Virus record (IMG/VR): IMGVR_UViG_3300046468_001139
DNA length: 64,000 nucleotides
Reading direction: 5' to 3' (one strand)
Source of the DNA: a virus
Part shown: positions 828-57,630 of the stretch, in pieces
How the letters are laid out: each line of letters begins with the position of its first letter
Numbering within the stretch: position 1 is the stretch's first letter
Program-made: the position numbers and the translations under genes
Notes under the pieces: model-generated
What the model saw: the letters and a program-made list of their open reading frames with translations, nothing else
Databases searched by the model: none
What the model was told of the DNA's origin: nothing

Positions 828-2987
828 ATGAAACTCAACGAAGTACTCACAAGCAAGACTCAAACTATATTAAATGAAGGCTGGCAAGATCTTAACGAAG
901 CACAGCAAAATTATTTAACAAGGTTTGAATTAGAGCTTTGGCCACTGGTTGAGCAGTATTCAATACTAGCAGAAGCAGAACTTACACCAGATCAAATACA
1001 ATCAATCTTCAAAGGTGCTGAAGAAACAGCAATGGCCAGTGGAGATAATAAAACTGCACTAGGTAAAGTTGGAGCGGCGGCTAAGTTACCCGTTGATCTA
1101 GCTAAGAAAGTTGATGCAAAAATTAATGAGCTAGGCAGACTAGCACAAAACGCAGGCCCAGTTAAAAATGCTGATGCAAAGTTTGAAGAACTTAAAAAGA
1201 AAATTGGTTCAAGCGACAGTAAAATTGTTGCAGGCGTTAATAAAATTAGTGATTGGGCAAAAGCTAATCCAGGTAAGGCAACACTAGCAGTAGGTATACT
1301 AACAACCATTGCGGCATTTGCAGGAGGACCACTAGGTGGTGCGGCCGCAGGTCTAGTACTACGTGGTACTAAAGATTTATTACAAGGTGAAAAACTTTCA
1401 ACAGCAGTTGGTAAGTCAGTTAAAACAGCGGCATATGGTGCTCTTGTTGGAGCAGGCTTTAGATACTTGTCAGATAACATTATGGCCAACATGGCACTTG
1501 CAGATGAAGCTCAAGCAGATGCTATGATGAAAGGGTTTGAAGATGCAAACTTTGAAAAGGCAGTTGACGGTGCTATTGCTGATGCAGGATTTGATAAAGG
1601 TGTACTTGACGGTGCAATGCTTCATAAATCATCAGGTAACATTAACGGATTCTTTTACAACTACCACACAGTTTTTAAACCAGACGAACTTGCACAATAT
1701 AAAGATTTAGTAGCGGCAACACAGTCAGTAAAAGTATTTTCGCCAGAGTATTATAAAGCGGCAGGACAACTGCACGAATTTCTTTCTGCAACACAAACAG
1801 CAAACTCAGATCTTACAACACTAGCACTTGCTATTAAAGACATTCCAAAAGATGCGTTAACAAGTGATCAGATAGATGCTGTAATTGCTGTACTTGATGA
1901 TGGCGACAAAGCAATAGCGGCAGTTAACGATGCAGGCGGAGCAATAGCGGCGGCGGCACAAGGTGCGGCGGCAACAGTTGATGATGCTAAAAAAGAAATG
2001 CACAAAGTTAAACCTGTTGCACCAGAAGAAATGAAACAACTGGAACTTGATCTTAAAGGCGGAAGTGATGCAACACCTGTAGATAAAAACTTTGACAAGA
2101 GTCAAAAACTTTCAGACTTTGGAGCAGTAGGAGATAAAGCAGAATCAATTGATTATGAAGATGCATTTAACGAATACTTACAAGAAGCAGATCCAGCACA
2201 ACAAGAACTACCATTAGACAATCCTAATTCACTAGGTGCTAAACTAAAACGTGGTGCAGGTAAAGTTGCAAGTAAAGCCGCAGGAGCAGTTAAGCAAGGT
2301 GCGGGAGCAGTTGCTAAAGGTGCCAAAGGAGCAGTTGGTGCAGTTAAGCAAGGTGCTAAAGATGTAGGTAACAAAGTTACTGCTAACAAACTTAATAAAG
2401 ATTGGAAGAAGATGGGTGAACCAACTGATTCCGGTAGCATTGTAAATATTTTATCAGGTGCAGGATTAACTAACGATCAGATAAGCAGTATTGCAGGATC
2501 AACACAAGCACCAATTAGTCCAGACGAAGTAACTAAAGCTGATGCACAAACACCTACAGATGGTGCCGCAGACGCAACACAAGCGTCAACAGCAAGTGAT
2601 AATACAAAAGACACACAAACACCAGCTAAACCAACTAAAGCACCAGCAGAACCTGCTCAAGCTGAGCCTACAAACACAGGTGCAAAGAACTTAGACAGTA
2701 CAAATACTAAAGGCGCTCCAACTAAACCAGGCAAACAAGAACCATCTAGTAAACCAACAACGCCTAAAAAACCGGGTAGCAACACAGCTACACCTACACA
2801 AAGCAATGTTAAAGCACTAGCACAAAAAATTAAACAGTCTGGTGCAAATACAGACAGTATCAAACAAGACCTAGTAGGTGGTAGTACTACATCGCAAGGT
2901 AGCACAGTTGATTTGCCAGACTTAGCAACAAGAATTGCTAAAGCAGGTGTGCAGAAACAAGTACGACAGATGTTAATTGCAAAATGA
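828..2987 (+). CDS. large Ala/Gly-rich protein with hydrophobic segment and Pro/Thr-rich linker; possible internal or ejected virion protein
   Basis: 719-aa ORF; repeated L-X-E motifs (LNE x3, LQE); hydrophobic stretch LAVGILTTIAAFAGGPLGGAAAGLVL. Confidence 0.55.
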   Translation: MKLNEVLTSKTQTILNEGWQDLNEAQQNYLTRFELELWPLVEQYSILAEAELTPDQIQSIFKGAEETAMASGDNKTALGKVGAAAKLPVDLAKKVDAKINELGRLAQNAGPVKNADAKFEELKKKIGSSDSKIVAGVNKISDWAKANPGKATLAVGILTTIAAFAGGPLGGAAAGLVLRGTKDLLQGEKLSTAVGKSVKTAAYGALVGAGFRYLSDNIMANMALADEAQADAMMKGFEDANFEKAVDGAIADAGFDKGVLDGAMLHKSSGNINGFFYNYHTVFKPDELAQYKDLVAATQSVKVFSPEYYKAAGQLHEFLSATQTANSDLTTLALAIKDIPKDALTSDQIDAVIAVLDDGDKAIAAVNDAGGAIAAAAQGAAATVDDAKKEMHKVKPVAPEEMKQLELDLKGGSDATPVDKNFDKSQKLSDFGAVGDKAESIDYEDAFNEYLQEADPAQQELPLDNPNSLGAKLKRGAGKVASKAAGAVKQGAGAVAKGAKGAVGAVKQGAKDVGNKVTANKLNKDWKKMGEPTDSGSIVNILSGAGLTNDQISSIAGSTQAPISPDEVTKADAQTPTDGAADATQASTASDNTKDTQTPAKPTKAPAEPAQAEPTNTGAKNLDSTNTKGAPTKPGKQEPSSKPTTPKKPGSNTATPTQSNVKALAQKIKQSGANTDSIKQDLVGGSTTSQGSTVDLPDLATRIAKAGVQKQVRQMLIAK

Positions 2988-3139
2988 AACAGTATTTAAA
3001 AAATCTAATTAACTGGCACGAACAACATATACATGATTTCCAAAAATGCACAAAGCTATCCGACTATCAAATGATGTGGACAGCCTTTGCTAAAGGAGCA
3101 TTATTTTCGTGGGTTATATTTTATTTGATTTTCTGCTAA
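2984..3139 (+). CDS. small putative membrane protein (51 aa), absent from the ORF track
   Basis: ATGA overlap with the upstream stop; MKQYLKNLINWHEQHIHDFQKCTKLSDYQMMWTAFAKGALFSWVIFYLIFC*. Confidence 0.6.
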   Translation: MKQYLKNLINWHEQHIHDFQKCTKLSDYQMMWTAFAKGALFSWVIFYLIFC

Positions 3140-3142
3140 ATC

Positions 3143-3292
3143 CTACCAGAACGGTTGCCCAGTCTTTTTAGCAGTCTCTAAGTTTTCTTTAATTAGTTTA
3201 GCGAATATTTCTCTATCTTCAGGACCCACTTGATACATTTCTTCAAGACTAATTGCACCACGCATGTACCAACACAGGCGTGCAAGTTCCAT
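3143..3292 (-). CDS. gp51-like baseplate hub assembly ORF; frame is open upstream to the gp26 slippery site (probable frameshift extension)
   Basis: MELARLCWYMRGAISLEEMYQVGPEDREIFAKLIKENLETAKKTGQPFW*; directly downstream of gp26 as in T4 26-51; -1 frame relative to gp26. Confidence 0.65.
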   Translation of the reverse strand: MELARLCWYMRGAISLEEMYQVGPEDREIFAKLIKENLETAKKTGQPFW

Positions 3293-3335
3293 CTTGATGT
3301 TTTTTGTCTCGTTTTCTAGGTTGTCGACCAGTCTT

Positions 3336-3379
3336 AGGATATCCTCTAGAGACTTAGAAGCTATCCTTATACGAAAAAA
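3336..3379 (-). promoter_or_regulatory. putative -1 programmed ribosomal frameshift signal
   Basis: T TTT TTC heptamer (3379-3373), 5-nt spacer, hairpin AGGATA-G-CTTCTA-AGTCTC-TAGAGG-A-TATCCT (3367-3336). Confidence 0.65.
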
Positions 3380-4230
3380 TTTGATTGATCAAACGAAACA
3401 GGCATTTCCCATTGCTTAGGTGCGCCTTCTTTGATTTCTTCTTCTGTTGCGTCAACTGTGATTGGCTCTAACGTAAACTTTTTCTTTTGTGATTCCATAC
3501 TTTCAACAACAGAAGAATAAAACTTCTTGTCTGCATTTTGTATAAACTGTTGAATGTGTAATTTGTCAGTTACAACATCTTCACCTGTTTGGATCGATAC
3601 AATTCCTTGCATGACCATATCAACTGTAATACTTGTTAAGCGTTGGAATGCTTGATTAAAGATTTCTAGTTTTTGTTCTTCTGTCATATCATCTTCTTGT
3701 ATGACTGAAGCAATACGCTGTTCTTCAAAAGTCTTAGTTGCAACTTTTGTAAACTCACGATACGTTTGCGGCCTTACTGTAAGGGTAAGCTCGTCTATTG
3801 TAAGAGTATCATCAAACGCAACATTTTGAAACTTGTCAAGTACTACTCTTAAGTCTAGGTCAAATTTACGTTCTAGTTTTGTATTTGGGATTTTAGAAGT
3901 TAATTCTAATTTCTCCCCGTATGTGGCAATTCTAATAGCAACCAATAGTGTATCAATATCAAGTGTTGGTATGTCCCAACCGTTTTTAATATTAGGTACA
4001 CAACTTTGGATAACATCAACTGTAGATTGACCGTTAAGTAATGCATCAGGAGTTTTAAACATAAGTTCATCTCTTGCCGTCATTGCATAAACAGGGAATT
4101 CCATATTGTCTGTTACTTCTAAACTTCCATTAGGATACCATCTGCCGTTGCTTGGCAACTTAATGTAAATTTTTGGTTGCCTAAAATACTTCTGTAACGG
4201 ATTGGCTCCGCTTCTCTCTATTTCTGGCAT
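3367..4230 (-). CDS. gp26: T4 gp26-like baseplate hub assembly protein / tail chaperone
   Basis: P.IYIKLPS.G, MTARDE, DID.LLVAIR..TYGE motifs and C-terminal NFF typical of T4-like gp26. Confidence 0.75.
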   Translation of the reverse strand: MPEIERSGANPLQKYFRQPKIYIKLPSNGRWYPNGSLEVTDNMEFPVYAMTARDELMFKTPDALLNGQSTVDVIQSCVPNIKNGWDIPTLDIDTLLVAIRIATYGEKLELTSKIPNTKLERKFDLDLRVVLDKFQNVAFDDTLTIDELTLTVRPQTYREFTKVATKTFEEQRIASVIQEDDMTEEQKLEIFNQAFQRLTSITVDMVMQGIVSIQTGEDVVTDKLHIQQFIQNADKKFYSSVVESMESQKKKFTLEPITVDATEEEIKEGAPKQWEMPVSFDQSNFFV

Positions 4231-4242
4231 GGTTTTTCTCCG

Positions 4243-4276
4243 GATAAATAATAAGTGTTCATATAGTATATTTATG
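4243..4276. promoter_or_regulatory. pair of face-to-face late promoters (GATAAATA + strand 4243-4250; CATAAATA - strand 4269-4276)
   Basis: Motifs lie in the intergenic space between divergent gp26 and the tape-measure-like gene. Confidence 0.6.
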
Positions 4277-4303
4277 AATCTGAGTTATATAGGTACTTAA
4301 TAA

Positions 4304-6937
4304 ATGGTTGATGTCACATACAGAGGCGGTGGAATGGATGGAGTTACTAGCAATGCGGCTAGTGAAGCTACTCTCCAACGTCTAGTTGCACTAATGGAAA
4401 AAGGCTCCAAGGGCGGTGGTGCGGCCACTGAAAAAATGGCAAATGACGTCAAAACCAAAGGCGTTGCTATATCTAAAGAAGATAACAAGGCTACAGCAGA
4501 AGGTACTGAAGCTAAGAAAGACGCAACCAAAGCACAGAAGAAACTTTCAGAACGAGTTAGAAATACTGCAAAAGCATTTGATAGATACTCATTAGGACTA
4601 TTCAGCGGAATAGGTAATACTATCCAAACATTTGGTGGTCTTGGTAAAGAACTAATTGCTGGCGGTAATCGAATAAGTGACTTTGGACAGCATGTTACAG
4701 GACTAATATCAAAATTTCCTATTGTAGGCGGCGTGATTGGTCAGTTTGGCCAAACAATGCTGAATGTACTTGATAATCAAATTGACATGTACAGATCATT
4801 GTCTGGAGCAGGTATTGACTTTGGTTCTAGTATGTTTGAAATGCAAAGACGTGCCGCTGAAGCAGGATTAAACATGGCTACCTTAGCAGGTACAATACAA
4901 GAAAATTCACAGATGTTAGCAGTAGCATTTGGCGGTGCAACTACAGGTGCTGATAGATTTTCTAAAATTTCAAAATATGTACAGCAATCACAAACAGATT
5001 TTTCTAAACTAGGTATGACAATGGAAGATGTAACTGAGTTTACAGCTGACTATATTGACTTACAAAGAATTCAAGGTAGATTGAAAGATCGTTCTGATAG
5101 AAGTCTTGCTAAAGGCACACAGAATTATATTATGCAACTTGATGCACTTGCTAAAATTACAGGTATGTCTAGAAAGCAAGCCGCAGAAGAATTAAAAGCT
5201 CAAAGTACTGATAAGAGATTACAAGCATTGTTCATGAACATGGATTCTAGCGTTCAAGAACAAATGAATGCTAGTTTAGCATTGATCAAAGGCGGAAGTC
5301 CAGAAATGGAAGACGCAATAAAAGAATTGATTGCAACTAACGGTGCTCCATTAAGTGACTTTGGAAAGAGTTTGCTACGAACTAATCCAGAGTTTGCAAC
5401 AATGGCACAAGGATTGAGAGATGGTTCTTTATCAGCAGATGATTTTGCAGAGATGACTAACTTGCAAGTAGAAGAAGCAAAAAGGTTTGTTAAGGAAAAT
5501 GCGGCAGTAATTGCACAATCACAAGCACTAGGTGATACTACATATGATGCTGTATTAGCACTAGCAAAAATGGGTGAAGTTGGTGGAAAACTTAGTGATG
5601 CAGAACAAAAACAATTAGATGCTATTGCGGCTAAAGATAAAACACTTACTGACTTTGATAGTATGATTGAAAAGATACGTAGTACTATCTTAGTTAAATT
5701 GCTTGACTCAGGTATATTTGACAAACTGCAAAAAGTAATGTCAGACCTTACAGCATGGTTCAACAAAGACGAAACACAAACATCTATTCAGGGATTTGTT
5801 GATAGACTAGGAACATTGTTTGACAACCTTGGTACAATGGTTGAAGACTTTAAAAAAGATTGGGGCAAGTTAAGCATTGGTGAACTAGTAACCAAGTATC
5901 TTATTAATCCTATCAAAACATTATTTGGTGCTGACACAGGTCCGCCACCAGGACATCCGGAGCATAATAAAAATGCAGGTTCGAAATCAAGTGGACTAAT
6001 GGGAGGATTGTTTGAATCATTAGGTCCAATAATTGAAAAATTTGAATCGTGGGGTAAAGCATTAATGTGGGGCGGTATTGGTGCCGCGGCTGTATTAATT
6101 GGATTCACAGCGGCTGTTGCGGCTATGGCGGCTCCGTTAGCATTAGCAACGCCAGGCGTTTTGGCAATTGGAGTAGCATTTGCTGGAGTAGGTGTAGCAG
6201 GATTTGGAATTGCGGCGTTGATAGATTCGATCACCACATCTGTTGACAATGTTGCAGTTGGATTGAAAAAGTTTGAAGACCTTGATTCAAAAAAATTAGG
6301 TGACGTTGGTGGGGCCTTAAAACCACTTACAGATAATATTATGGGTCTTGCTAAAGGCGGTGTTGTTGCATCGTTTATGAGTGAAGGCGTATTAGAAAAA
6401 ATTGCCGCAGGCGTTAAATCGTTTGAAGGTATTGATTCTAAATCAATGAAGGATATGGGTCCTGCATTAACTAGTTTACAAACAGGTATTGCGGCATTTA
6501 CCGGTGACGGTATTATGGATAGCTTTAGTAAATTCATTGGCGGATTGTTTGGCAATGATGGTGGAATGAAAGATATGGCTGACGACCTTGAGGCGTTTGC
6601 TGATATTGATTCCGCTGGAATTAAAGCTATTGGAGATGGGTTACAAGGCATTGCGGCATATATTGAAACTATGGATGGTGCAAACCTTAAACAAGTAACC
6701 AAAAACTTAAAAGAATTAATTAAACAAATTGGACAATACAACGAAGAATACAAAAATATGGATGCTGAAACCAAAGCATCGTTTACTAAAGTATTAAATG
6801 TCAATAATGAGAGTCAAGATAAGTCGAGTAGCTTACTGAATCAGTTAAATAGTACTAACACACTTATATTAGATGAACTTAAAAAACAAACTAAAGGTGG
6901 AAAAGCTATGACAAACGCAATATCAGGAGCGGCATAA
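4304..6937 (+). CDS. tape measure-like protein
   Basis: 877 aa, predicted helical, Ala/Gly/Leu-rich with a long hydrophobic segment (WGGIGAAAVLIGF...FGIAALI); adjacent to gp26/gp51 chaperones. Confidence 0.65.
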   Translation: MVDVTYRGGGMDGVTSNAASEATLQRLVALMEKGSKGGGAATEKMANDVKTKGVAISKEDNKATAEGTEAKKDATKAQKKLSERVRNTAKAFDRYSLGLFSGIGNTIQTFGGLGKELIAGGNRISDFGQHVTGLISKFPIVGGVIGQFGQTMLNVLDNQIDMYRSLSGAGIDFGSSMFEMQRRAAEAGLNMATLAGTIQENSQMLAVAFGGATTGADRFSKISKYVQQSQTDFSKLGMTMEDVTEFTADYIDLQRIQGRLKDRSDRSLAKGTQNYIMQLDALAKITGMSRKQAAEELKAQSTDKRLQALFMNMDSSVQEQMNASLALIKGGSPEMEDAIKELIATNGAPLSDFGKSLLRTNPEFATMAQGLRDGSLSADDFAEMTNLQVEEAKRFVKENAAVIAQSQALGDTTYDAVLALAKMGEVGGKLSDAEQKQLDAIAAKDKTLTDFDSMIEKIRSTILVKLLDSGIFDKLQKVMSDLTAWFNKDETQTSIQGFVDRLGTLFDNLGTMVEDFKKDWGKLSIGELVTKYLINPIKTLFGADTGPPPGHPEHNKNAGSKSSGLMGGLFESLGPIIEKFESWGKALMWGGIGAAAVLIGFTAAVAAMAAPLALATPGVLAIGVAFAGVGVAGFGIAALIDSITTSVDNVAVGLKKFEDLDSKKLGDVGGALKPLTDNIMGLAKGGVVASFMSEGVLEKIAAGVKSFEGIDSKSMKDMGPALTSLQTGIAAFTGDGIMDSFSKFIGGLFGNDGGMKDMADDLEAFADIDSAGIKAIGDGLQGIAAYIETMDGANLKQVTKNLKELIKQIGQYNEEYKNMDAETKASFTKVLNVNNESQDKSSSLLNQLNSTNTLILDELKKQTKGGKAMTNAISGAA

Positions 6938-8673
6938 TGAGTTGGAAACGTTATTTTACGCCAGTTCCAACAGGTTCTGCCCAAGACGGCAGTTATAGCC
7001 CACTTGGCGGAAGTACTAACCAAGGTATGGGTCCTGCCCAAGCAAACTATTCAAGTTACTTGCCAGATGTATATGTAGGTTCTCCAAATCGTGTTGAAAG
7101 ATACGGACAATATAACACTATGGACAACGATAGTGAAGTAAATGCCGCATTAGATATTTTAGCAGAATTTACAACCCAAAAAAATACTTCAAACAGAAGT
7201 CCGTTTGTTATGGATTTCAAATCTGATGCAACTAATACAGAAGTACAAACACTTAAACTATACTTACAACAGTGGTGTAAAGTACAAAACTTTGAAACAA
7301 AAATGTTTCGTATTTTACGTAATGTATTCAAGTATGGTGATGCATTTTTTATTAGAGATCCAGAAACTAAAAAATGGCATTACATTGATCCTGCAAACGT
7401 TACAAAGATTATTGTTAACGAATCAGAAGGTAAAAAACCTGAACAGTATGTTATTAAAAATGTAAACTTAAACTTTGTTTCAAACGTAGCAACTACTCCA
7501 TTACAAACAAACGGTAATGTTACAGGCGGTGGCGAAGGTTACATGACTGGTGGCTCACGTGGAATGACAGGTGCACCTAACCAAGCATTACAAGGTGGAC
7601 GTTTTGCAAAAGGCGAATCAGAGTTTGCAGTTGATGCAGAACATATTGTACACCTAAGTTTATCAGAAGGGTTAGACAACAACTTCCCATTTGGTAACAG
7701 TTTGTTAGAAAGTATATTTAAAGTATACAAACAAAAAGAATTATTAGAAGATGCTATTATTATTTACAGAGTGCAAAGAGCACCTGAACGTAGAGTATTT
7801 TACGTTGACGTAGGTAATATGCCATCACACTTGGCAATGCAATTTGTTGAACGTGTAAAAACAGATATACACCAAAGACGTATTCCAAGTAGTACAGGTG
7901 GAGGAAATAATGTTATTGACTCTAGCTATAACCCATTAAGCATTAACGAAGATTACTTCTTTCCGCAAACAGCAGAAGGACGTGGATCTAAAGTTGAAAC
8001 ACTACCAGGTGGTACAAACTTAGGAGAGATTGATGATCTTAGATATTTTACTAATAAGTTGGTACGCGGTTTGCGTATTCCTAGTTCTTATCTTCCTACA
8101 GGGCCTGACGATGGTGCTAGTGCATTCCAAGATGGGCGAGTGGGTACTGCGTACATTCAAGAGTTACGCTTTAACACCTATTGCGAAAGACTACAAGGAC
8201 TTTTAACAGAACAATTTAATCAAGACTTTAAACGCTACCTATTAGAAAAAGGTATTAACATTGACACAGCAATGTTTGACCTAAGGATGCAACCACCACA
8301 AAACTTTGCAAGTTACAGACAATCAGAACTTGACAATGCAAGAGTTGGAACATTTACTCAAATGGCGGCTATACCTTATGTGTCAAATAGATTTGCACTT
8401 AAACGTTTCTTAGGACTAAGTGCAGAAGAAGTTGCAGAGAACGAAAAGTTCTGGCGTGAAGAAAATGACGAAAACTTAACTCCAGTTCCAACAGACGCCG
8501 CAGGCGAAATGCGTGGAGCAGGTGTTAGTGCCGCAGGCATGAGTGCAGACCTTGGCGGAATGGAAGATGAAGCAGTTGATCCAGACGCACCGGCACCAGA
8601 AGATGGCGGAGCAGGCACACCACCAGAAACAGTAACAGGCGATGATGCCCCAGTACCAGGCGCTGAAGGATAA
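6937..8673 (+). CDS. gp20: portal vertex protein
   Basis: LLEDAIIIYRVQRAPERRVFYVDVGNMP, EDYFFP, SKVETLPGG, LRIPSSYL, ELRF motifs. Confidence 0.95.
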   Translation: MSWKRYFTPVPTGSAQDGSYSPLGGSTNQGMGPAQANYSSYLPDVYVGSPNRVERYGQYNTMDNDSEVNAALDILAEFTTQKNTSNRSPFVMDFKSDATNTEVQTLKLYLQQWCKVQNFETKMFRILRNVFKYGDAFFIRDPETKKWHYIDPANVTKIIVNESEGKKPEQYVIKNVNLNFVSNVATTPLQTNGNVTGGGEGYMTGGSRGMTGAPNQALQGGRFAKGESEFAVDAEHIVHLSLSEGLDNNFPFGNSLLESIFKVYKQKELLEDAIIIYRVQRAPERRVFYVDVGNMPSHLAMQFVERVKTDIHQRRIPSSTGGGNNVIDSSYNPLSINEDYFFPQTAEGRGSKVETLPGGTNLGEIDDLRYFTNKLVRGLRIPSSYLPTGPDDGASAFQDGRVGTAYIQELRFNTYCERLQGLLTEQFNQDFKRYLLEKGINIDTAMFDLRMQPPQNFASYRQSELDNARVGTFTQMAAIPYVSNRFALKRFLGLSAEEVAENEKFWREENDENLTPVPTDAAGEMRGAGVSAAGMSADLGGMEDEAVDPDAPAPEDGGAGTPPETVTGDDAPVPGAEG

Positions 8674-12386: not shown

Positions 12387-13553
12387 ATGTCAGAACTACT
12401 AGAAAGTCGCTGGCAGGATACCAAAGTTGCACTTTTAGAAGGCCTTCAAGGCAATAAGAAAGCAACAATGGCAAGCACTCTTGAAAACACACGCAAGTGG
12501 TTGAATGAGACTGCTACAGCTGGTTCTACAAGCGCCGGTAATGTTGCAACTCTAAATAGAGTTATCCTACCAGTAATCAGACGTGTCATGCCAACTGTAA
12601 TCGCCAACGAATTAGTCGGTGTACAGCCTATGACAGGTCCAGTGGGTCAAATCCACACATTAAGAGTACGTTACTCAGATTCATCTGATGGTAACGAAGT
12701 AGGTGAAGAAGCACTTTCACCATTTAAGATCGCATCAGCTTACTCAGGTAACGCTACAGATGCAACACCAAAAGGATCTGCAACAGCGGCTCTTGAAGGT
12801 GCGGCTGGTAAGAGATTATCAATCCAGATCTTAAAGCAAACTGTCGAAGCAAAAACCAGAAAGCTATCAGCTAGATGGACTTTTGAAGCGGCTCAAGATG
12901 CTCAAGCACAGCAAGGTATCGATATTGAAGCAGAAATTATGGCGGCATTAGCCCAAGAAATTACTGCTGAGATTGATCAAGAAGTATTAGCTTCTTTACG
13001 TGCTTTAGCAGGATCTACAAACCAACAAGCATACGACCAGACTGCTGTAAGTGGTACTGCAACATTCGTAGGTGACGAACATGCGGCATTAGCTGTAATG
13101 ATCAACCGTGTTGCAAACACTATCGCTCAGCGTACTAGACGTGGTGCTGGTAACTACGCAGTGGTATCGCCACATGCATTAACTGTACTTCAGTCAGCAA
13201 CAACTTCAGCGTTCGCAAGAACAACTGAAGGTTCTTTCGAAGCTCCAACTAACACTAAAATGGTTGGTACTTTGAATAGTGCTATGAAAGTATATGTTGA
13301 TTCATATGCGGCTGATAACACAGCAGTACTAGTTGGTTACAAAGGATCTTCAGAGTCAGACGCACCAGCGTTTTACTGCCCATACATTCCATTAATGAGC
13401 AGTGGCGTAGTGTTAGACCCTGATAGCTTTGAGCCAGTAGTAAGCTTCATGACTAGATACGGATATGTTGAGTTATCAAACACAGCATCGTCTCTAGGTA
13501 ACGCGGCGGACTACTTAGGTACAGTTACTATCGCAGGTGTAACATTCTCTTAA
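12387..13553 (+). CDS. gp23: major capsid protein
   Basis: RRVMPTVIANELVGVQPMTGPVG, KTRKLSARWTFEAAQD, FYCPYIPL, FMTRYG motifs. Confidence 0.97.
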   Translation: MSELLESRWQDTKVALLEGLQGNKKATMASTLENTRKWLNETATAGSTSAGNVATLNRVILPVIRRVMPTVIANELVGVQPMTGPVGQIHTLRVRYSDSSDGNEVGEEALSPFKIASAYSGNATDATPKGSATAALEGAAGKRLSIQILKQTVEAKTRKLSARWTFEAAQDAQAQQGIDIEAEIMAALAQEITAEIDQEVLASLRALAGSTNQQAYDQTAVSGTATFVGDEHAALAVMINRVANTIAQRTRRGAGNYAVVSPHALTVLQSATTSAFARTTEGSFEAPTNTKMVGTLNSAMKVYVDSYAADNTAVLVGYKGSSESDAPAFYCPYIPLMSSGVVLDPDSFEPVVSFMTRYGYVELSNTASSLGNAADYLGTVTIAGVTFS

Positions 13554-20337: not shown

Positions 20338-20735
20338 TGGTACAGTATGTAGGACAAGCACCTTTAGCAGGGCAAACAGGAGATAGATATTTTTACGCAC
20401 TTCGCAGAGACGATGATGGTGCATTGTTTGTTGCTAAGGTAGACGTTGCTAGTCCGTCAGATGCAATCCAAATGAACAGACCAGGTGGACCAGACGGCAA
20501 CTTTGCTGACTTCCAAACTGGCGAAGATTTCTTTGAAGGAAGAAATCCTAACCATGTACTAGTTTTTGATAACTTAGTATATGAACAAATGAGATGGGAC
20601 GAAAAAAACATTTATTATTATGTTAATGAAGAAGGTGAGTTAGTCCTAAGAATTAATACAAAATATACATACGATGACAATGCATCAGCTGATCATTTAC
20701 CGTTTGGAACTAACCCGACAGGATACACAGGATAA
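20337..20735 (+). CDS. hypothetical virion protein
   Basis: Translationally coupled (TAATG) on both sides; YFYALRR, YEQ.RWD, YYY..EGELV. Confidence 0.6.
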   Translation: MVQYVGQAPLAGQTGDRYFYALRRDDDGALFVAKVDVASPSDAIQMNRPGGPDGNFADFQTGEDFFEGRNPNHVLVFDNLVYEQMRWDEKNIYYYVNEEGELVLRINTKYTYDDNASADHLPFGTNPTGYTG

Positions 20736-23700
20736 TGGCCGAATTTAATCTAGCACGAATAAGATATACTTGGAAAAATGTCTGGCTTGCAGGTGCAACA
20801 TACATCAAAGACGATATCATTAGACATGGTGGTAACACTTATGTTTGTATGGAAGGACACTTATCAGACCAAACTAGTTTTAACACAGATTTAACTGCGG
20901 CAACTCCAAAATGGTTATTAATGTCAGACGGTTACCAATGGAAAGGTAACTGGGCAGTTGAAACAAGATATAAAGTTAACGACTTAGTAAAATACAACGG
21001 TATAGTTTATCGTGTAATTGAAGAACATTTATCAGCGACAACACAAGCTGAAGGTATTACTGACGATACTGATAAGTTTTTATCATTTGCTTCAACTGAA
21101 GATTGGAACGGAGTATGGGCACCTCTAACAAGATATAGAATAGGTGACATTATACGTTACGGTTCTATTGTTTATAAATGTATTGAAGAACATACATCAA
21201 GTTCTATTACAGCAGGACTTGAACAAGACCAATCAAAATGGCAACTTACGTTTAAAGGTAATGACTTTAAATTTGAATGGGCTCCTAACTCAAGATATAA
21301 AATAGATGACGTTGTAAAATACGGTGGTATTATCTATAGATGTGTACAAGGTCATACTTCTGCGGCATCAGCTCTATTAGGCTTAGAAGATGATTTAAGC
21401 AAATGGACTGTTGTACTAAGTGGTATTGAATATAAAGGCTTTTGGCAAGATAACGGAGACTCATCAGGAACAAGATATAAAGTTGGTGATCTAGTAAGAT
21501 ACGGACCAACTGTTTGGAGATGTAAAGAATATCATGCATCATTAACAGACTTTGATGAAAGTAAATTTGATATTTGGATGCCAGGACTAGGCTTTGAAGC
21601 TGAATGGTCAGCATCAACAAGTTACCAACCAGGTGATATTGTACGTTACGGTGGATATACATATACATCAATGACAAACAACTTAGGTAGTGCTCCTAGT
21701 GTAACAGGTGTTTTCTACGAAGGTGAAAGTTTACAAGGTTTATATGATTGGGAATTATTAATTACTGGTTATAAAGTAACAGGTGAATGGACATCATCAA
21801 CTGCATATAGAACAGGTGACGTAGTTAGAAATAACGGATTTGTTTATATTGCTGTACAAGATAATACTAATCAGCAACCAGATGCATTAGATCCTGAAAT
21901 ATCAGGTTACTACGATCCAGGTGAAACTAGAAGTGCAAACGGTGGATACTCAATGTATTGGCAGTTAGTAATTACTGGTGTTTCATATCAAGGTGAATGG
22001 ATTGATACTAAAGATTATGTACTAGGCGACATAGTTGTTCAAGCAGGACAAACATGGAAATGTATACAAGCACACGAAGGTGATGATTCATCATTAGTTG
22101 AACCAGCACTAGATGCAACAAACAGTTACTGGACGAAACACATTGTAGGTGCTACTGGTAACGTGATGCAATACAGAGGTGATATTAGAACACATGATGG
22201 AAGTAATCATGTAAGACGTGCTATTGGTAATCCAGGTGATGCAATGAAAGTTGTGTCAAGTGACGATCAATGGGAAGCATTAGGTACAATTCCTAAAGTG
22301 TATTATGTTGCAACATCAGGACAAGATATTTCAGGTGCAGGATTAACAGCAACTAACCCATTTAAAACAATTAAGTATGCTACACAATATATTTTAGGTG
22401 ACGAAGCTAACAGAGCTCCAGCAACAATTTTTGTTAGCACAGGAATTTTTGAAGAAATTCTTCCTATCAAAGTACCAGCAGGTGTTGCTATTGTTGGAGA
22501 CGAATTAAGAAGTACTACAGTTAAACCAAGAGAAGGTTCAGAAGACCAAGACATGTTCCAAGTTAGAAACGGCTGTGGAATTAGAAATATGACTCTTGAA
22601 GGATTACAAGGTACACTAGGTACACCAGATACTTACGGAGCATCAGTTCCAAGTGCAGGTGCATTTGTTGCACTTGACCCAGGTACAGGACCGTCAGACT
22701 CAAGCGTATGGATTACAACAAAATCAACATATGTACAAAACGTAACAACTATAGGTACTGCTTGTGTTGGATTAAAAATTGACGGTGCATTACACAATAG
22801 CGGAAATAAATCAATCGTTGCTAACGACTTTACACAAGTTATTAGTGATGGTATTGGTGTGTGGGCTAACAAAGACGGTAGAGCAGAGCTTGTATCTGTG
22901 TTTACATATTATTGTCATATTGGTTACTATGCTACAGCAGGTGGTAAACTACGTGCTACAAACGGTAACAACTCATACGGAAAATACGGATCGTTTGCTG
23001 AAGGAGAACTAGTTAGTGAAACTCCAATTACAGCAACAGTTAATAACAGATATTACAATGCAATAGCACCAACTGTTTACAGTAACGCTAACCAAATTTT
23101 TGCACTAGGATACACACACGCAGGTGAAGAATATACTAATGCTACATATAATATTACAGGTTCAGGTAGCGGTGTTGGAGTTGATAACGCTTCGACTGAT
23201 ACTAGAAACGGTGGAATTAGTGAACTTAGATTACTTGATCCAGGTGACTCGAGTACACCAGGTGGTAGAGGACATATTACAGGTGTAAGAAACTCTGCAC
23301 AAGGTGGAGATAGTATTTCAATTACTATTGCACAATCAGATGCAAACGGACCAGAATACTATGTTGGTAGAGCTATTACCGCAGTTAATGGAATAGGTGC
23401 CGCAGATGCAAACAGAGTTGGTAACGTAGACGATGCTCCTTATACATATACAGGAGTTACAGCAACTTCAAATAACCCACTTGCAAAATCTACTGTAGGA
23501 ACATTTACAGTTAGTGTTGACGCAACTGGAGCCGCAACTGTTACAGTTACAAATGGCGGACACAGTCATAGACTTGGAGATACTATTACAATTTTAGATA
23601 GTGACATTGGTAACTTTGGTGCACCAAACTTAACGTTTAATGTATCAGGTATTAGTGAGTCAATGAAAATTATCATTGAAGAAGGTGAAGGTGTTGGACA

Positions 23701-26074: not shown

Positions 26075-26116
26075 ACCAAATGATAAATACATATAACACG
26101 CATGTAGGAAGAAACA

Positions 26117-29100
26117 ATGGCAGAATTTAAACTAGGTAGAATTAGATTTGTATGGAAAGGTTCTTGGACAACCGGAACTGTATACTATAAAGACGACATC
26201 GTAAGACAAGGCGGAAGAACTTACTTCTGTAACGTAGGTCACACAGCGTCTGCAGATTTTGCCACAGATGAATCAGCTAAATGGCAACTATTTACAGATG
26301 GTGTTTCTTGGAACGGTACTTGGACTTCTAACTACTATTACAAACAAAACGACCTTATTAAATATGGTGGTTACCTTTACGTTTGTAACACAGCTCACAC
26401 TTCTGAAGTAGACGGTGCAACAGCAGGAAAATTAGAAACTGATCAAGCTAAATGGGATTTATTTGCAGAAGGCTTTGATTGGAAAAGCGACTGGACTATT
26501 ACTACAGTTTATAAAGTAAATGACATTGTTAAGTACGGTGGTAATTTATATCTTTGTAACACAGCACATACAGGTTCAAGTTCACAAGGTAGTGACACTG
26601 ATGGATTAGAAGCAGATCTTTCTAAATGGGATATTTTCTCAAAAGGAATGGACTGGAAAAGCGACTGGGCAATTAGTACAAGATACAGAGCCGGCGATAC
26701 TGTTAAGTATGGCGGCAGAATGTACATTTGTAATGAAGGTCACCTTAGTGCGGCAACAACTGGCGATGGTCTAGAATCAGATCAAACTAAGTGGGACGTT
26801 GTACACAACGGTATTGAATACAAAACAGTACATGCAATTAATACACGATACAAAATTAATGATGTTGTTAAGTATGGTGGCGGTCTTTGGATCAACACAC
26901 ACGAACATACATCAAGTGCAACAAGTTTAACTGACGATGTTACAAGTGCAGGACACATTGTAACGATTGATCAAATTAGTGCCGCTGACACAGACAGAAC
27001 AGCAGGTACATACAACGACATTACAGGAACATCAAACGGTTCAGGTACTGGACACAGATTTAATATTACAATAGACAATCTTGGTGCGGCAACTGTAACA
27101 GTAGTTAAAGGTGGACAAGGACATGCGATTGGTAACACAATTTCAATTAGTCCAACAGACTTTGGCGGAACAGGAACTACACTTACGTTTAACGTTCTTA
27201 CTATTGAAACAAGTACACAATGGCAACAGTTTATTCCAGGTTTAGAATTTGAAGACAGTTGGTCAGGATCAACTGCATACCAAATAGGTGACTTTGTTAC
27301 TTATGGTGGTTACTCTTATATTGCTACGCAAAACAACACTAACGTTGTTCCATTTGGTAACGCATCAACATGGGATTTATTTACAACAGGATTTAGTTTA
27401 AAAGGTGACTACAATAATGCAACTGCTTATAAAGTTGGTGATGTAGTTAGAGTTGGTGGATACACATATATTAGTATCCAAGACACAACAGGAAACAGAC
27501 CACCTAACGTAACTTATTGGGACAGACTTAACGAAGGTATGTCTTGGAAAGATGCGTGGGCTAACGCAACATACTACGACTTAGGTGATGTTGTTAGAGG
27601 AATTAACAATGTTAACTCTTATATTTGTGTACAAGCACACACATCAGATCAAGTAAGTAATCAAGATAGACCAGATCAAGATGTAGCAGGTGCATATTGG
27701 AAACTTATGTCAGGCGGTGTTGAGTCAGGTAACTTAACAACTGCTGGTGACTTAGTTTACTACGGTGGATCAGGACCAACAAGATTACCAATTGGTAAAG
27801 ACGGTCAAGTATTAAAAGTTAATGAGGCAGGTAATGCTCCGGAATGGGCATACTTTGGTCAGTTAGATCAAGTTTACTATGTTGGTAAAAGTGGTGTTGA
27901 CGGATTTGCACCAGCATATGGTGTTACAATCGATAAGCCATTCTTTTCAACAAGATGGGCATGTGAGCAAATACGTAAAGGGCCACGTAACCCAGAAGCA
28001 ACAAATTTAATTGAGATGAACAAACAGTTTATCCAAGAACAAACAATGGAATTTATTACACACAGTATTGCAAATAATACTGCTCCATTTACAACTTCAT
28101 TTACATATGATGCAGTTAAATGTCGTAGAGACATTGGAATTATTTTAGATGCATTACTATGGGATCTAAGACACGGCGGTAATGTAAGAATGCGTGAATG
28201 TGCATTGTCTTATATTTCACCAGGTGGTGCAAACTATGTTGCAGGACAAACAGCAGAAACTAATGCGGCAATTAATTACGCAATGAGCTTACTGCCAAAC
28301 ATTATTACAAATTTACCACCAGCGGCAAACTACGCAACATTAAACAGCGTAGCAACACCAGTTGTACAATTTACTGATTCAACTAAAACTGCTGAGCCAA
28401 ACATTGCAACAACAGCTAATGCGTTGACATTATTAATTACAGATACAATTACAGCAGGTAATACTACTAATTTACAGAAAAAAATTAAACCAAACGTAAC
28501 AGTATTTGTTAAAACAGGACAGTATAACGAAATACTTCCAATTATTGTTCCAGCAGATGTAGCAGTTGTTGGTGATGAATTACGTAGTACAGAAATTAGT
28601 GCGGCAACAGCAGGACCAACTGATGTTAACGATGCTAACCTAAGTAAAACTGCTATACTAAGAATGAAAGCAATACTTAGCGATGTTGTATTAAACAACG
28701 CTGTTACTAAAACAGCGGCAGGTGGACACTTAACAATGGATACATTTAGTGCCGCAGACGCAAGTAGAGCAACAGGTACGTATACAGGCGTAACAGGTTC
28801 AAGTTCAGCGGCAGGTACAGTAGGAACATTTGATATTACAGTAGATGCTAACGGTGCAGTAACAAGCGTATTAGTAGTTACAGCAGGATCAGGACATGCA
28901 ATTAACGACACAATTACTATTGCAGATAGTGTATTAGGTAACGGCGGTGGAGCGGCATTTACAATGGATGTTGCAACAATCAGTACAGGTAACACACGTA
29001 CACAAGATGTTAGATTACCAGCAGGTAATGCAACGGCTGTTACAACAGCTGAGTTACTATTCCAAGACATTCATAATTACATTGACTATGAAGTTAACGG

Positions 29101-56211: not shown

Positions 56212-57630
56212 TTAGAGTACTAAACGCCAGCTTCCTTTTCGATACTCGCCTTCAAAGGATAGTGTCCATTCTACACCGTCCCATTTGTATTGTATACCAG
56301 TAGTTAAATTGGTTGTATATGTTATGTCAGTTGATGGCTCTGTTTTGGTACTTGAATCAAATACTATTTGCCATTCTGTTCCAGACCATTCAATAATATC
56401 GTTTTCACTAGCAACTAGTGTGTCATTACCGCCACTATCTTTCCAAGCATCGGCGCCATCTGTGTTATCTGTAGAACCAATATCTCCTAGTAATAATATT
56501 CTGTTACCAGGTACTTTTAAGTTAGTTGGATTAGTTCTAGTTGGATCAATAATTGCATCAATAGTTCCTTTTTGTGGACTATTTGGTAATCCTAATACTG
56601 TATTAGTTGGAATAGTATCTTCGTCCCAATTAACAATAAGTTGTGTTTCGTCTAAATCATTTAGTGCAATAGTACCTACAACTGGAGCGGCTAAATCGAT
56701 TCTGTTTAGATAAATTTTACTTAATCCTGCTCTATATTCACCAGGTTCTACTTCAAGGTATTCACGCCAATTAATTTCACCTGATATACCATTCTTACCA
56801 AGTTGTACAATATTGTTAGTAACAATAGCATCGTAGTTTAATGCTGTGTTCACTTGTATGTGTATTCTTTCTGAACTGTCTTTGTTTTTAGTACTGTTTG
56901 CCCAACTGTCATCATAAGCATTAAGCTCTGGCATTGATTTTCCTAAATCAATAGTACCTTTAGTTTCATCAAAGATACTCATTATAACACTTGTTATGAC
57001 ACCTAGCTTTTTAACTTTAGCTGGAGGACTAATATAAATTGGTGTTGAAAACGATAGTGTTGCTACATCTATTTCAGTATCAATTCCCATAGGAATAGTT
57101 CTTCCACTAAAAACAATATTTTCTAAATCAACAACACTTAAACTTGTCCAGTCTACATAGTTGTCTGTAGTTTGTATTTCTAAACTAGGATTAAAGAACA
57201 TTAATAGCTGTTCCATAATTTGTAGTTTTTGTTCTGTGTTAGTAGACCAAATATCTGCATTAACTTTTAGTGTATATGGTGTAGGCATTAAACGTTCAAC
57301 AGTATAATTGTTACCCTGTGTGTTTAAATATTCTTTACCTTCTGCATCATATTCACGTTCTCTAAGATGTACTTTGCCGGTGTATGTAGCATCAGCAGTT
57401 CTAGTACGATCCATTTCTAATCCAGTAACATATACTCCTATACGTGGAGCACTTGGTATTTTATTTTCGCTATTGTCTTTTATAATGGCGCCAACTTGTC
57501 TTGTAATATCTCCGTACATAACAGGAACTTGAACAAGATTACCTTTGCTATCAGCATACGAAAAGTTACTCATTAGTCTTACTAGCTGAGTAATGTATCT
57601 TCTTATTTGTCCATCATAAAAGTGTTGCAT
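56212..57630 (-). CDS. gp15: tail sheath stabiliser / tail completion protein, extended
   Basis: FYD.QIRRY, VPV.YG, P.PY.L, QKLQI.EQ....FNP. Confidence 0.8.
   Translation of the reverse strand: MQHFYDGQIRRYITQLVRLMSNFSYADSKGNLVQVPVMYGDITRQVGAIIKDNSENKIPSAPRIGVYVTGLEMDRTRTADATYTGKVHLREREYDAEGKEYLNTQGNNYTVERLMPTPYTLKVNADIWSTNTEQKLQIMEQLLMFFNPSLEIQTTDNYVDWTSLSVVDLENIVFSGRTIPMGIDTEIDVATLSFSTPIYISPPAKVKKLGVITSVIMSIFDETKGTIDLGKSMPELNAYDDSWANSTKNKDSSERIHIQVNTALNYDAIVTNNIVQLGKNGISGEINWREYLEVEPGEYRAGLSKIYLNRIDLAAPVVGTIALNDLDETQLIVNWDEDTIPTNTVLGLPNSPQKGTIDAIIDPTRTNPTNLKVPGNRILLLGDIGSTDNTDGADAWKDSGGNDTLVASENDIIEWSGTEWQIVFDSSTKTEPSTDITYTTNLTTGIQYKWDGVEWTLSFEGEYRKGSWRLVL

What the first reader, a model, noticed from the sequence alone, without database searches (positions are those of the whole stretch)
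3143..3379. Predicted -1 ribosomal frameshift fusing gp26 to gp51: a lambda G/GT-like chaperone switch in a T4-related phage
Seen: gp26 ends AAT TTT TTC GTA TAA, an X XXY YYZ heptamer (T TTT TTC) one codon before the stop. Five nt downstream is a 12-bp hairpin (AGGATA/TATCCT and CTTCTA/TAGAGG). Its loop AGTCT is complementary to AGACT just 3', so an alternative fold is possible. The -1 frame is open for 76 codons (RIRIASKSLEDILRLVDNLENETKNIKMELARLCWYMRG...PFW*). It includes the gp51-like ORF, whose ATG has no obvious SD and is preceded by 27 open, helical-looking codons. Known: long-tailed phages make G and GT tape-measure chaperones by -1 frameshifting next to the tape-measure gene. Inference: gp26 and a gp26-51 fusion are the G/GT equivalents here, and the neighbouring gene is the tape-measure candidate.
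Basis: partly seen in the sequence, partly recalled or inferred. Interest (0 to 1): 0.85.

Follow-up and report, generated by a model that had tools for sequence, protein, structure and literature searches.

The report
Frameshift in baseplate-hub chaperone gene
One tail-baseplate assembly gene of this giant T4-related phage very probably makes a short and a long protein, because some ribosomes slip back one base on a strictly conserved TTTTTTC run; phage T4 makes the same pair from two separate genes (26 and 51), and no paper or database record I could find reports the slip.

Summary
On the minus strand, the gp26-like gene (4230..3367, Pfam PF12322) ends AAT TTT TTC GTA TAA. A 12-bp hairpin starts 5 nt after the heptamer, and the -1 frame stays open for 76 codons. 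Comparison strongly supports a programmed -1 frameshift. All 239 complete one-gene loci I fetched carry T_TTT_TTY in frame (236 TTTTTTC); they fall into 30 clusters at 50% identity and include jumbo phages, cyanophages, KVP40, Aeh1, phiM12, Cr30 and HTVC008M. The -1 peptide is conserved from its first residue and shows coding periodicity. In most jumbo-type loci no start codon precedes the conserved residues. Relatives exist in which the same long form is one uninterrupted ORF. Each of these, like T4, RB49 and RB43, has a second, short PF12322 gene without the slippery run. The extension corresponds to the C-terminal domain of T4 gp51. The lambda G/GT comparison holds as a working analogy (two chaperone forms sharing an N-terminus), but membership in that family is not shown. 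The tape-measure identity of the neighbouring 877-aa gene is only a lead. This scan had already reached the same reading on at least 27 other genomes. No experiment exists.

The parts
3367..4230 (-). gp26-like baseplate hub assembly gene, zero frame, 287 aa (the short form)
   Evidence: PF12322 at 37.6 bits; phrog_150 at E 1.1e-13; 30-35% identical to the single PF12322 gene of Phosso, Atu_ph07, PA5oct and CBB; GGAG lies 9 nt before the ATG; AF2 model pLDDT 81.
3373..3379 (-). slippery heptamer T_TTT_TTC (zero-frame codons AAT TTT TTC), the proposed -1 shift site
   Evidence: Read directly. Invariant in 57 aligned relatives, where the heptamer and the following G form the longest run of invariant columns (8). 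Present in frame in 239 of 239 one-gene loci. Absent from the short paralog wherever a separate long-form gene exists.
3336..3367 (-). stem-loop 5 nt downstream of the heptamer, the probable frameshift stimulator
   Evidence: MFE fold. On 57 relatives, 70% of cells are paired against 32-44% for slid controls; covariation exceeds 500 of 500 shuffles; the outer 6-bp stem is kept in 68-100% of sequences (88-100% for five of its six pairs), with 7 GC-to-AU double changes at each of two adjacent pairs. A subset of relatives appears to use a longer alternative 3' partner.
3146..3373 (-). -1 frame extension, 76 codons (gp51-like C-terminal domain plus linker); with residues 1-286 of gp26 it gives a 362-aa long form
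   Evidence: Open frame. Conserved from residue 1 across relatives. Codon-position entropy 1.29/0.90/1.68 in the linker; stops in the gp26 zero frame in all 123 loci and in the third frame in 115 of 123. A profile of it finds natural 319-351-aa proteins that carry it at their C-terminus.
3143..3292 (-). 49-aa ORF as an ORF finder calls it (first ATG of the -1 frame to TAG); the C-terminal part of the extension, probably not an independent gene
   Evidence: Its ATG is ext codon 28 and is shared by only 11 of 123 relatives. It has no Shine-Dalgarno motif.
4304..6937 (+). 877-aa virion protein gene, divergent neighbour; a tape-measure candidate (a lead, not shown)
   Evidence: phrog_14121 'virion structural protein'. 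Synteny portal / ~720-880-aa protein / divergent gp26 in PA5oct, CBB, SHEFM2K, XaC1, Phosso and L088. The PA5oct homolog is flagged as detected by ESI-MS/MS; the CBB homolog is annotated 'virion structural protein'. The nearest named Atlas clusters are tape-measure families at 0.93-0.94 with few shared features. It contains a long Gly/Ala-rich hydrophobic stretch.

Best explanation
Window 4230..3143 (minus strand) is one recoded gene. Most ribosomes read the gp26-like frame to TAA and release a 287-aa protein. At U_UUU_UUC (3379..3373) a fraction of ribosomes, paused by the stem-loop 5 nt downstream, slip back one base. The two Phe-tRNAs re-pair with UUU UUU. These ribosomes continue in the -1 frame for 76 codons and make a 362-aa gp26-gp51 fusion with the junction ...SNFF-RIRI.... 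The short and long forms correspond to T4 gp26 and gp51, the two paralogous PF12322 'hub assembly chaperones'. The shift would fix their ratio from one mRNA. Shown here: the signal, its conservation at synonymous sites, protein-level conservation across the junction, natural in-frame versions of the long form, and the complementary distribution (one gene with the slippery site, or two genes without it). Inferred: that slippage actually happens and at what rate, that the hairpin stimulates it, and that the two forms act on the hub or tape measure in a G/GT-like manner.
For: (1) The heptamer is invariant: 85 of 85 loci in the first set, 75 of 75 one-gene loci in a second set about 30% identical to the query, 70 of 70 cyanophage-type loci, and also SHEFM2K and XaC1, KVP40, S-PM2, P-SSM2, HTVC008M and phiM12, Aeh1 and Cr30. 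Pooled, this is 239 loci, 236 TTTTTTC and 3 TTTTTTT, in 97, 30 and 9 clusters at 70, 50 and 40% identity. The preceding codon varies (AAT, AGT, GAT, ACT, CAT, GCT, TCT) but always ends in T. The second Phe is TTC in 236 of 239, although TTC is only 19% of Phe codons in these genes. (2) The -1 frame is open 57-77 codons from the junction in every complete locus. The linker shows coding periodicity, and both other frames contain stops. (3) The first ATG/GTG/TTG of the -1 ORF lies after ext codon 13 in 73 of 123 loci and upstream of the junction in only 5. The window has none before codon 28, and the -1 extension of PA5oct contains no Met at all. (4) An HMM of the extension finds 319-351-aa proteins with PF12322 at the N-terminus and the extension at the extreme C-terminus, with junction ..F-R-x-[KR]-[IL]-[IL]... 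(5) Complementarity: every in-frame long-form locus (L088, L090-93, L095) has an adjacent second PF12322 gene whose end is not slippery (AAT TTC TTT, or NFL/SFI). T4 gp26 has GAG TTC TTT, and RB49 and RB43 end SFL/AFL. Phosso, Atu_ph07, PA5oct, CBB, SHEFM2K, S-PM2, P-SSM2, HTVC008M, KVP40, phiM12, Aeh1 and Cr30 each have exactly one PF12322 match. (6) The hairpin is supported by covariation. (7) T4 gp26 (1-206) and gp51 (1-201) both span the whole PF12322 model, and gp51 has an extra C-terminal ~48 aa that is homologous to the -1 ORFs. (8) The AF2 model of a natural long form (pLDDT 90.5, pTM 0.87) places the junction inside a helix and folds the extension into four helices. The window's short form ends in a low-confidence coil at that point.
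Against: There is no experimental evidence of any kind: no junction peptide and no reporter assay. Part of the T-run conservation is a protein constraint, since Phe-Phe is also kept in T4 gp26 and in the short paralog of L088; only the synonymous choices argue for slippage. The hairpin is modest (about -13 to -15 kcal/mol for the stem-loop, z = -1.9 for 86 nt). RNAalifold found no single consensus structure, and both arms lie in conserved codons. In cyanophages and KVP40 a conserved ATG sits 3-4 codons after the junction (TAATG overlap in KVP40), so there a separately initiated small gp51 is also possible. The window's extension matches T4 gp51 only weakly (P 0.02-0.003). To my knowledge U_UUU_UUC is not among the most efficient heptamers measured in E. 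coli.
Confidence: 0.85

Rival explanations
1. There is no frameshift. gp26 and a small gp51-like peptide are separate products, and the small ORF is translated from its own start (ATG 3292 here) or by termination-reinitiation coupling. The T-run is kept only because Phe-Phe is needed in gp26.
For: Database records annotate two separate genes everywhere. In cyanophage-type loci a Met is invariant at ext codon 4, and KVP40 has a TAATG stop-start overlap. Phe-Phe is conserved as protein even where the run is not slippery.
Against: This does not explain synonymous-site invariance in 239 of 239 loci, in contrast with TTC TTT or FL in every two-gene phage. It does not explain conservation and coding periodicity of the 27 codons upstream of the window's ATG, or the lack of any canonical start before conserved residues in most jumbo-type loci. 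It does not explain the invariant Arg codon straight after the heptamer, or the natural uninterrupted long forms that align across the junction. The window's ATG has no SD and is shared by 11 of 123 relatives.
Confidence: 0.07
2. The long form is made by transcriptional slippage. RNA polymerase adds an extra U in the T6 run, so a fraction of mRNAs carry the two frames fused, and the ribosome does not shift.
For: The site is a homopolymer run (T6, or T7 in HTVC008M, phiM12 and Cr30). The protein product would be the same, so the comparative evidence cannot separate the two mechanisms.
Against: To my knowledge, efficient bacterial or phage RNA polymerase slippage needs longer runs (about 8-9). 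The run is held at exactly six T followed by C in 236 of 239 loci. It sits in the X_XXY_YYZ register of the zero frame. A stem-loop with covariation lies at the 5-nt spacing typical of ribosomal -1 sites.
Confidence: 0.06
3. The gene is broken or the sequence is wrong: a real single long gene carries a 1-nt homopolymer error in this assembly.
For: Homopolymer runs are error-prone, and in-frame long forms exist in some relatives.
Against: The same two-frame layout recurs in 239 independent loci, including finished isolate genomes. In-frame long forms have a different junction (a single Phe) and are always accompanied by a separate short gene.
Confidence: 0.01

Closest known systems
Phage T4 gp26 (208 aa) and gp51 (249 aa), baseplate hub assembly chaperones (Leiman et al. 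2010, PMC3004832, Table 2); Pfam PF12322 T4_baseplate
   Same: Same family: the window's gene hits PF12322, and both T4 proteins span the whole model. The short and long forms differ by a C-terminal domain of ~48-76 aa with the motif P-x-[ED]-R-x4-[KL]-[LI]-[IL]. According to the review, gp51 is needed for assembly but absent from the particle.
   Different: T4 (also RB49 and RB43) encodes the two forms as two separate, diverged genes with no slippery run. Here one gene plus a -1 shift would make both, so the two forms share an identical N-terminal 286 aa. The window's protein has lost the four Cys of the zinc ribbon.
Lambda gpG/gpGT and the conserved -1 frameshift of tail assembly chaperone genes in long-tailed phages (Levin 1993; Xu, Hendrix and Duda 2004, 2013, 2014, as cited in PMC5009743)
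   Same: A -1 shift at a heptamer near the 3' end of a small assembly gene yields an abundant short form and a rare C-terminally extended form. The logic of a fixed ratio from one mRNA is the same. Both are assembly factors of the tail. In KVP40 the order is tail tube, 26, (-1) 51, 655-aa ORF, which resembles V-G-T-H.
   Different: No sequence similarity to the chaperone families was found, and the fold match to the HK97 chaperone 2ob9 is within noise (Z 6.0; absent from the top 50). In this window the gene is not between the tube and tape-measure genes: it diverges from an 877-aa candidate next to the portal gene. Binding to the tape measure or tube is untested. The heptamer is U_UUU_UUC; I did not compare it with the lambda site.
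'gp26' plus small 'gp51, baseplate hub assembly catalyst' gene pairs as annotated in cyanophages and KVP40 (e.g. PSSM2_014/015; KVP40.0328/0327, whose note reads 'similar to a 40 amino acid stretch at the C-terminus of T4 ... gp51')
   Same: This is the same locus architecture as the window: a single PF12322 gene, T_TTT_TTC 1 codon before its stop, and a gp51-like ORF in the -1 frame. The similarity of the small ORF to the gp51 C-terminus is already recorded in GenBank.
   Different: Those records treat the two ORFs as independent genes, and none carries a ribosomal-slippage join. In them the small ORF has its own conserved ATG, whereas the window's group has a 27-codon conserved linker with no start.

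Membership tests
Programmed -1 ribosomal frameshift site | X_XXY_YYZ heptamer in the zero frame of the upstream ORF | tested here: met
   T_TTT_TTC at 3379..3373, in register with AAT TTT TTC.
Programmed -1 ribosomal frameshift site | Heptamer conserved at synonymous positions across diverged homologs | tested here: met
   239 of 239 one-gene loci, in 30 clusters at 50% identity. TTC is 19% of Phe codons elsewhere in these genes. The run is absent in two-gene phages.
Programmed -1 ribosomal frameshift site | -1 ORF open from the shift site and under protein-coding constraint across the junction | tested here: met
   76 codons are open. Arg1 is invariant and the linker is conserved. Entropy by codon position is 1.29/0.90/1.68, and both other frames contain stops. 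Natural in-frame fusions exist.
Programmed -1 ribosomal frameshift site | Stimulatory RNA structure 5-9 nt downstream | tested here: met
   12-bp hairpin after a 5-nt spacer. The outer stem is conserved with compensatory changes, and covariation exceeds all shuffles and slid controls. However, RNAalifold found no single consensus, and some lineages appear to use another 3' partner.
Programmed -1 ribosomal frameshift site | Trans-frame protein actually made | not testable with these tools
   This needs mass spectrometry, a western blot or a reporter assay.
PF12322 T4_baseplate (gp26/gp51) | Profile match above Pfam's gathering score | tested here: met
   37.6 bits against 24.5; residues 59-258 match profile positions 36-199.
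PF12322 T4_baseplate (gp26/gp51) | gp51-type C-terminal domain after the PF12322 domain (long form) | tested here: inconclusive
   The window-type extension against small gp51 ORFs gives P 0.0034, and against T4-like gp51 gives P 0.02; both alignments are colinear and at the C-terminal end. The small gp51 ORFs against T4 gp51 give E 3.6e-8. The window's extension has no PHROG or Pfam hit.
Lambda G/GT-type tail assembly chaperones | Two products sharing an N-terminus through a -1 shift near the 3' end | tested here: met
   See the rows above (predicted, not demonstrated).
Lambda G/GT-type tail assembly chaperones | Gene located between the major tail/tube gene and the tape-measure gene, same strand | tested here: not met
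   In the window the gene is divergent from the 877-aa candidate, which is followed by the portal gene. The nearest tail-sheath-family gene found (phrog_11196 tail sheath / phrog_227 sheath stabilizer) is about 52 kb away. KVP40 does show tube-26-51-655-aa ORF, but that ORF is of unknown family.
Lambda G/GT-type tail assembly chaperones | Sequence or fold homology to known tail assembly chaperones | tested here: inconclusive
   There is no Pfam chaperone family hit. The HK97 chaperone 2ob9 gives Foldseek E 2.1 and VIA Z 6.0, rmsd 4.2, with 98 of 104 residues aligned to the long-form model. It is not in the top 50 for the window's own model. All of this is within the noise range.
Lambda G/GT-type tail assembly chaperones | Short form binds the tape measure, extension binds the tube protein, and neither is in the virion | not testable with these tools
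   This needs pull-downs and virion proteomics. According to the literature, T4 gp51 is absent from particles (PMC3004832). The CBB homolog is annotated 'structural protein'.

The most novel reading that the evidence does not exclude
The gp26 / gp26-51 pair made by this frameshift is the long-missing G/GT-type chaperone system of the whole T4-like superfamily (jumbo phages, cyanophages, pelagiphages, KVP40 and Aeh1 groups). The recoded single gene is the ancestral state. T4's genes 26 and 51 are a later duplication that hard-wired the two forms. The fixed short:long ratio governs loading of the tape measure into the baseplate hub.
Probability: 0.4. Interest if true: 0.85.

Novelty: new variant of a known kind. 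Interest (0 to 1): 0.78.

Why it matters
Programmed -1 frameshifting in tail assembly chaperone genes is a near-universal feature of long-tailed phages. [quoted passage not shown] A conserved recoding signal in the single gp26 gene of most T4-related lineages has four consequences. It explains why T4 has two paralogs. It predicts an unannotated ~360-aa (jumbo phages) or ~290-aa (cyanophages) protein in hundreds of genomes, including the abundant marine cyanophages. It corrects the annotation of the 'gp51' mini-genes. It also makes the function testable, because the ratio of the two forms can be manipulated by point mutations in cultivable phages such as KVP40, S-PM2, PA5oct and CBB.

Tried and rejected
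- Pairwise BLASTP of the window's gp26 or extension against T4 gp26/gp51 gave nothing significant; profiles were needed.
- Pfam and PHROG scans of the extension gave no family.
- tblastn of the extension against phage records found only Atu_ph07 and Phosso.
- RNAalifold on 57 sequences gave no consensus structure. The longer alternative helix is weaker than the short hairpin. The loop/AGACT pseudoknot is not conserved.
- Rfam found no family in 2900..4400.
- The PDB sequence search with T4 gp51 and with the long-form profile found no relative.
- Foldseek found nothing at E <= 0.001. VIA-align lists were dominated by generic helical hairpins.
- Complex prediction of the first 460 aa of the 877-aa neighbour with gp26 returned 'no answer' (score 0.00). 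This is not evidence either way.
- The window's own assembly is not held, and the nearest record is a 24-kb fragment. A second PF12322 gene elsewhere in this phage therefore cannot be excluded directly; complete relatives have only one.
- PF25671 (T4 tape measure) was not found in S-PM2, P-SSM2, HTVC008M, KVP40 or phiM12, so the ORFs downstream of their gp51 could not be identified by homology.
- Fetching T4-type gene 26 loci from IMG/VR gave only 7, too few for a control set. RB49 and RB43 were used instead.
- The sigma-70 promoter and terminator scan gave nothing above chance, and the T4 late-promoter motif TATAAATA is not enriched.
- Literature searches for a gp26/gp51 or baseplate-hub frameshift found no relevant paper. 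Subscription journals are not covered.

Full report
WHAT IS THERE

The window is part of a giant T4-related phage. It carries a T4-type portal gene (6937..8673, PF07230, E 1.3e-108), a major head protein gene (12387..13553), a tail-sheath-family gene (56212..57630, minus strand) and three ORFs of 1779-2571 aa. Its nearest isolates are Sinorhizobium phage Phosso, Agrobacterium phage Atu_ph07, Pseudomonas phage PA5oct, Pectobacterium phage CBB and the 121Q/PBECO4 group, at 30-35% protein identity.

The finding lies on the minus strand.
- A 287-aa gene (4230..3367) belongs to PF12322 T4_baseplate, the family of T4 gp26 and gp51.
- It ends AAT TTT TTC GTA TAA. The heptamer T_TTT_TTC is 3379..3373.
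- A 5-nt spacer follows, then a 12-bp hairpin at 3367..3336.
- From C3373 the -1 frame runs 76 codons to TAG 3145..3143.
- An ORF finder sees only the last 49 codons, from ATG 3292. That ATG has no Shine-Dalgarno motif, whereas gp26 has GGAG 9 nt before its own ATG.

IS IT MORE THAN CHANCE?

I collected homologous loci in several steps:
- four isolate genomes, then two more;
- 80 IMG/VR loci 50-92% identical to the window's gp26;
- 80 more, found with a profile of distant long forms;
- 80 cyanophage-type loci;
- single genomes of S-PM2, P-SSM2, HTVC008M, KVP40, phiM12, Aeh1, Cr30, RB49, RB43 and Vi01.

Every locus with a single PF12322 gene and complete sequence, 239 in all, has T_TTT_TTY in the zero frame, 0-11 codons before the stop. 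Of these, 236 have TTTTTTC and 3 have TTTTTTT. They form 97, 30 and 9 single-linkage clusters at 70, 50 and 40% identity.

The residue before Phe-Phe varies (N, S, D, T, H, A), but its codon always ends in T. The second Phe codon is TTC in 236 of 239, although TTC makes up only 19% of Phe codons elsewhere in these genes. Other Phe-Phe pairs in the same genes are mostly TTC TTT or TTT TTT. In a 57-sequence DNA alignment, the longest run of invariant columns is the heptamer plus the next G (8 columns).

THE -1 FRAME IS TRANSLATED ACROSS THE JUNCTION

The extension is conserved as protein from its first residue: Arg is invariant, followed by [ILVM]-[RK]-[IL]-L.

In 123 non-redundant loci of the window's type:
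- The 27 linker codons upstream of the window's ATG have codon-position entropies of 1.29, 0.90 and 1.68. This is the signature of coding sequence in that frame.
- The gp26 zero frame contains stops in all 123, and the third frame in 115 of 123.
- The only universal ATG is the Met inside the conserved W-Y-M-R-G motif.
- The first canonical start of the -1 ORF lies after conserved ext codon 13 in 73 of 123 loci, and upstream of the junction in only 5. The window has none before codon 28.

The -1 extension of PA5oct contains no Met at all, and no gene is annotated there.

NATURAL IN-FRAME VERSIONS AND A COMPLEMENTARY DISTRIBUTION

A profile of the extension, searched against 1.84 billion protein representatives, found 438 hits. 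Most are small ORFs with ragged, caller-dependent starts. Sixteen of the best 150 are proteins of 319-351 aa with the extension at the extreme C-terminus. The ones scanned hit PF12322 in their N-terminal part. They read straight through the junction as ..F-R-x-[KR]-[IL]-[IL]...

In all six in-frame long-form loci (L088, L090-L093, L095; L090 and L091 are near-identical copies), a second PF12322 gene without the extension lies next to the long one. Its C-terminus is not slippery: AAT TTC TTT in L088, and NFL or SFI in others.

T4 has the same layout. Genes 26 and 51 both span the full PF12322 model, gp51 carries about 48 extra residues, and gene 26 ends GAG TTC TTT GAG. RB49 and RB43 also have two genes, and their gp26 ends SFLKIL or AFLKVVG.

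Conversely, each of these genomes has exactly one PF12322 match together with the slippery run: Phosso, Atu_ph07, PA5oct, CBB, SHEFM2K, S-PM2, P-SSM2, HTVC008M, KVP40, phiM12, Aeh1 and Cr30. One gene with a slip site, or two genes without one: this is the pattern expected if both forms are required.

THE EXTENSION IS THE gp51 C-TERMINAL DOMAIN

In cyanophages and KVP40 the -1 ORF is already annotated 'gp51, baseplate hub assembly catalyst'. The KVP40 note records its likeness to the last 40 residues of T4 gp51. hhalign of five such ORFs against 92 T4-type gp51 proteins gives 95% probability and E 3.6e-8, over gp51 residues 210-252. The window-type extension aligns to the same region, colinearly but weakly: P 0.0034 against the small ORFs and P 0.02 against gp51. 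The shared motif is S-L-x-E-x5-P-x-[ED]-R-E-I. None of the records I inspected carries a slippage join.

THE RNA ELEMENT

On 57 relatives, the hairpin's outer six pairs are kept in 68-100% of sequences (88-100% for five of the six). Seven sequences carry double GC-to-AU changes at two adjacent pairs, where AGG-to-AAA co-varies with synonymous ATC CTA-to-ATT TTG. Overall, 70% of cells pair against 32-44% for slid controls, and the covariation score exceeds 500 of 500 shuffles. Some lineages appear to pair the same 5' arm with a site about 18 nt further downstream. This is probably why RNAalifold found no single consensus. No Rfam family matches.

STRUCTURE AND THE G/GT QUESTION

AF2 models a natural long form with high confidence (pLDDT 90.5, pTM 0.87). 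The junction lies in a helix, and the extension forms four helices. The window's short form (pLDDT 81) ends in a low-confidence coil at that point. No solved relative exists. The HK97 tail assembly chaperone 2ob9 appears with 98 of its 104 residues aligned, but at Z 6.0 and rmsd 4.2. It is missing from the top 50 for the window's own model, so this remains a lead only.

Leiman et al. 2010 list both gp26 and gp51 as hub assembly chaperones, with gp51 absent from particles. The logic of one mRNA, two forms and a shared N-terminus is therefore that of lambda G/GT. But the defining gene order is not met here, because the gene diverges from the 877-aa neighbour. Homology and binding are also unshown.

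The 877-aa protein is a plausible tape measure for four reasons:
- Its homologs are virion proteins: the PA5oct homolog is flagged ESI-MS/MS and the CBB homolog is annotated 'virion structural protein'.
- Its synteny with gp26 and the portal gene is conserved.
- It contains a Gly/Ala-rich hydrophobic stretch.
- Its nearest named Atlas clusters are tape-measure families at 0.93-0.94.

It has no family hit.

VERDICT

A conserved programmed -1 frameshift is very probable (0.85). It makes a 287-aa gp26 and a 362-aa gp26-gp51 fusion. The remaining doubt is that nothing has been measured. Separate initiation (0.07) and transcriptional slippage (0.06) are the live rivals.

I found no paper reporting the frameshift. 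After forming this reading, I found that this scan had reached the same conclusion on at least 27 other genomes. I reproduced their main claims independently. I could not confirm the claim in one note that the shared N-terminal part folds like a tail assembly chaperone.

Noticed in passing
window 3367-4230 (-); L088:5105-5995: The window's gp26 has lost all four Cys of the CxxC...CxxC zinc ribbon that Phosso, Atu_ph07, PA5oct and CBB keep (IPNTKLER and EGAPKQW in their place). The short paralog of the two-gene locus L088 has lost them too, while its long paralog keeps them.
   Followed up: partly
L277 (Salmonella phage Vi01, NC_015296 46.6-47.6 kb): Vi01 (Ackermannviridae) has a single PF12322 gene and a gp51-like ORF in the -1 frame (..DLLSYFVM...YSIFEISESMPWH..). 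The gene ends GAA ATT TTC ATT TAA, with no canonical heptamer. This could be a different slip site or separate initiation.
   Followed up: partly
L178 (HTVC008M), L179 (phiM12), L275 (Cr30): These three phages use T_TTT_TTT instead of T_TTT_TTC. In HTVC008M the run is eight T, directly followed by the stop.
   Followed up: no
L281 (RB43 gene 26 3' end): RB43 gp26 ends with a canonical T_TTA_AAG heptamer, but the -1 frame closes after 7 codons. It is probably a chance match.
   Followed up: yes
L088:1-2709: The portal gene of this related uncultured phage is 963 aa and carries intein-splicing and (faint) HNH hits inside the Portal_T4 domain: an intein in a portal gene.
   Followed up: no
window 39288-41099 (+): A 603-aa Nol-like carbamoyltransferase (phrog_1601, E 1.5e-161) sits among the structural genes. 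It may be an auxiliary or glycan-modifying gene.
   Followed up: no
window 20735-32230 and 44553-52268 (+): There are three giant ORFs of 1779, 2037 and 2571 aa, probably fibre or baseplate proteins. They were not examined.
   Followed up: no
window 828-2987 (+): A 719-aa ORF, convergent with the gp26-51 gene, has no Pfam or PHROG family. It has Ala/Gly-rich repeats and a Pro/Thr/Lys-rich low-complexity C-terminal third.
   Followed up: no
window 4304-5683 (+): The N-terminus of the 877-aa tape-measure candidate carries a motif (NAASEATLQxL) whose Ala, Glu, Thr and Leu positions are invariant across relatives that are only 23-40% identical overall.
   Followed up: no
window 1-64000: No tRNA or tmRNA gene was found in 64 kb of this giant phage.
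   Followed up: yes
P0004-P0095 (T4-type gp51 homologs): The protein collection's precomputed domains list a second family, PF28602.1, on T4-type gp51 proteins besides PF12322. It is not in the local Pfam copy. It is presumably the gp51 C-terminal domain and would be the natural model to test the -1 extensions against.
   Followed up: no
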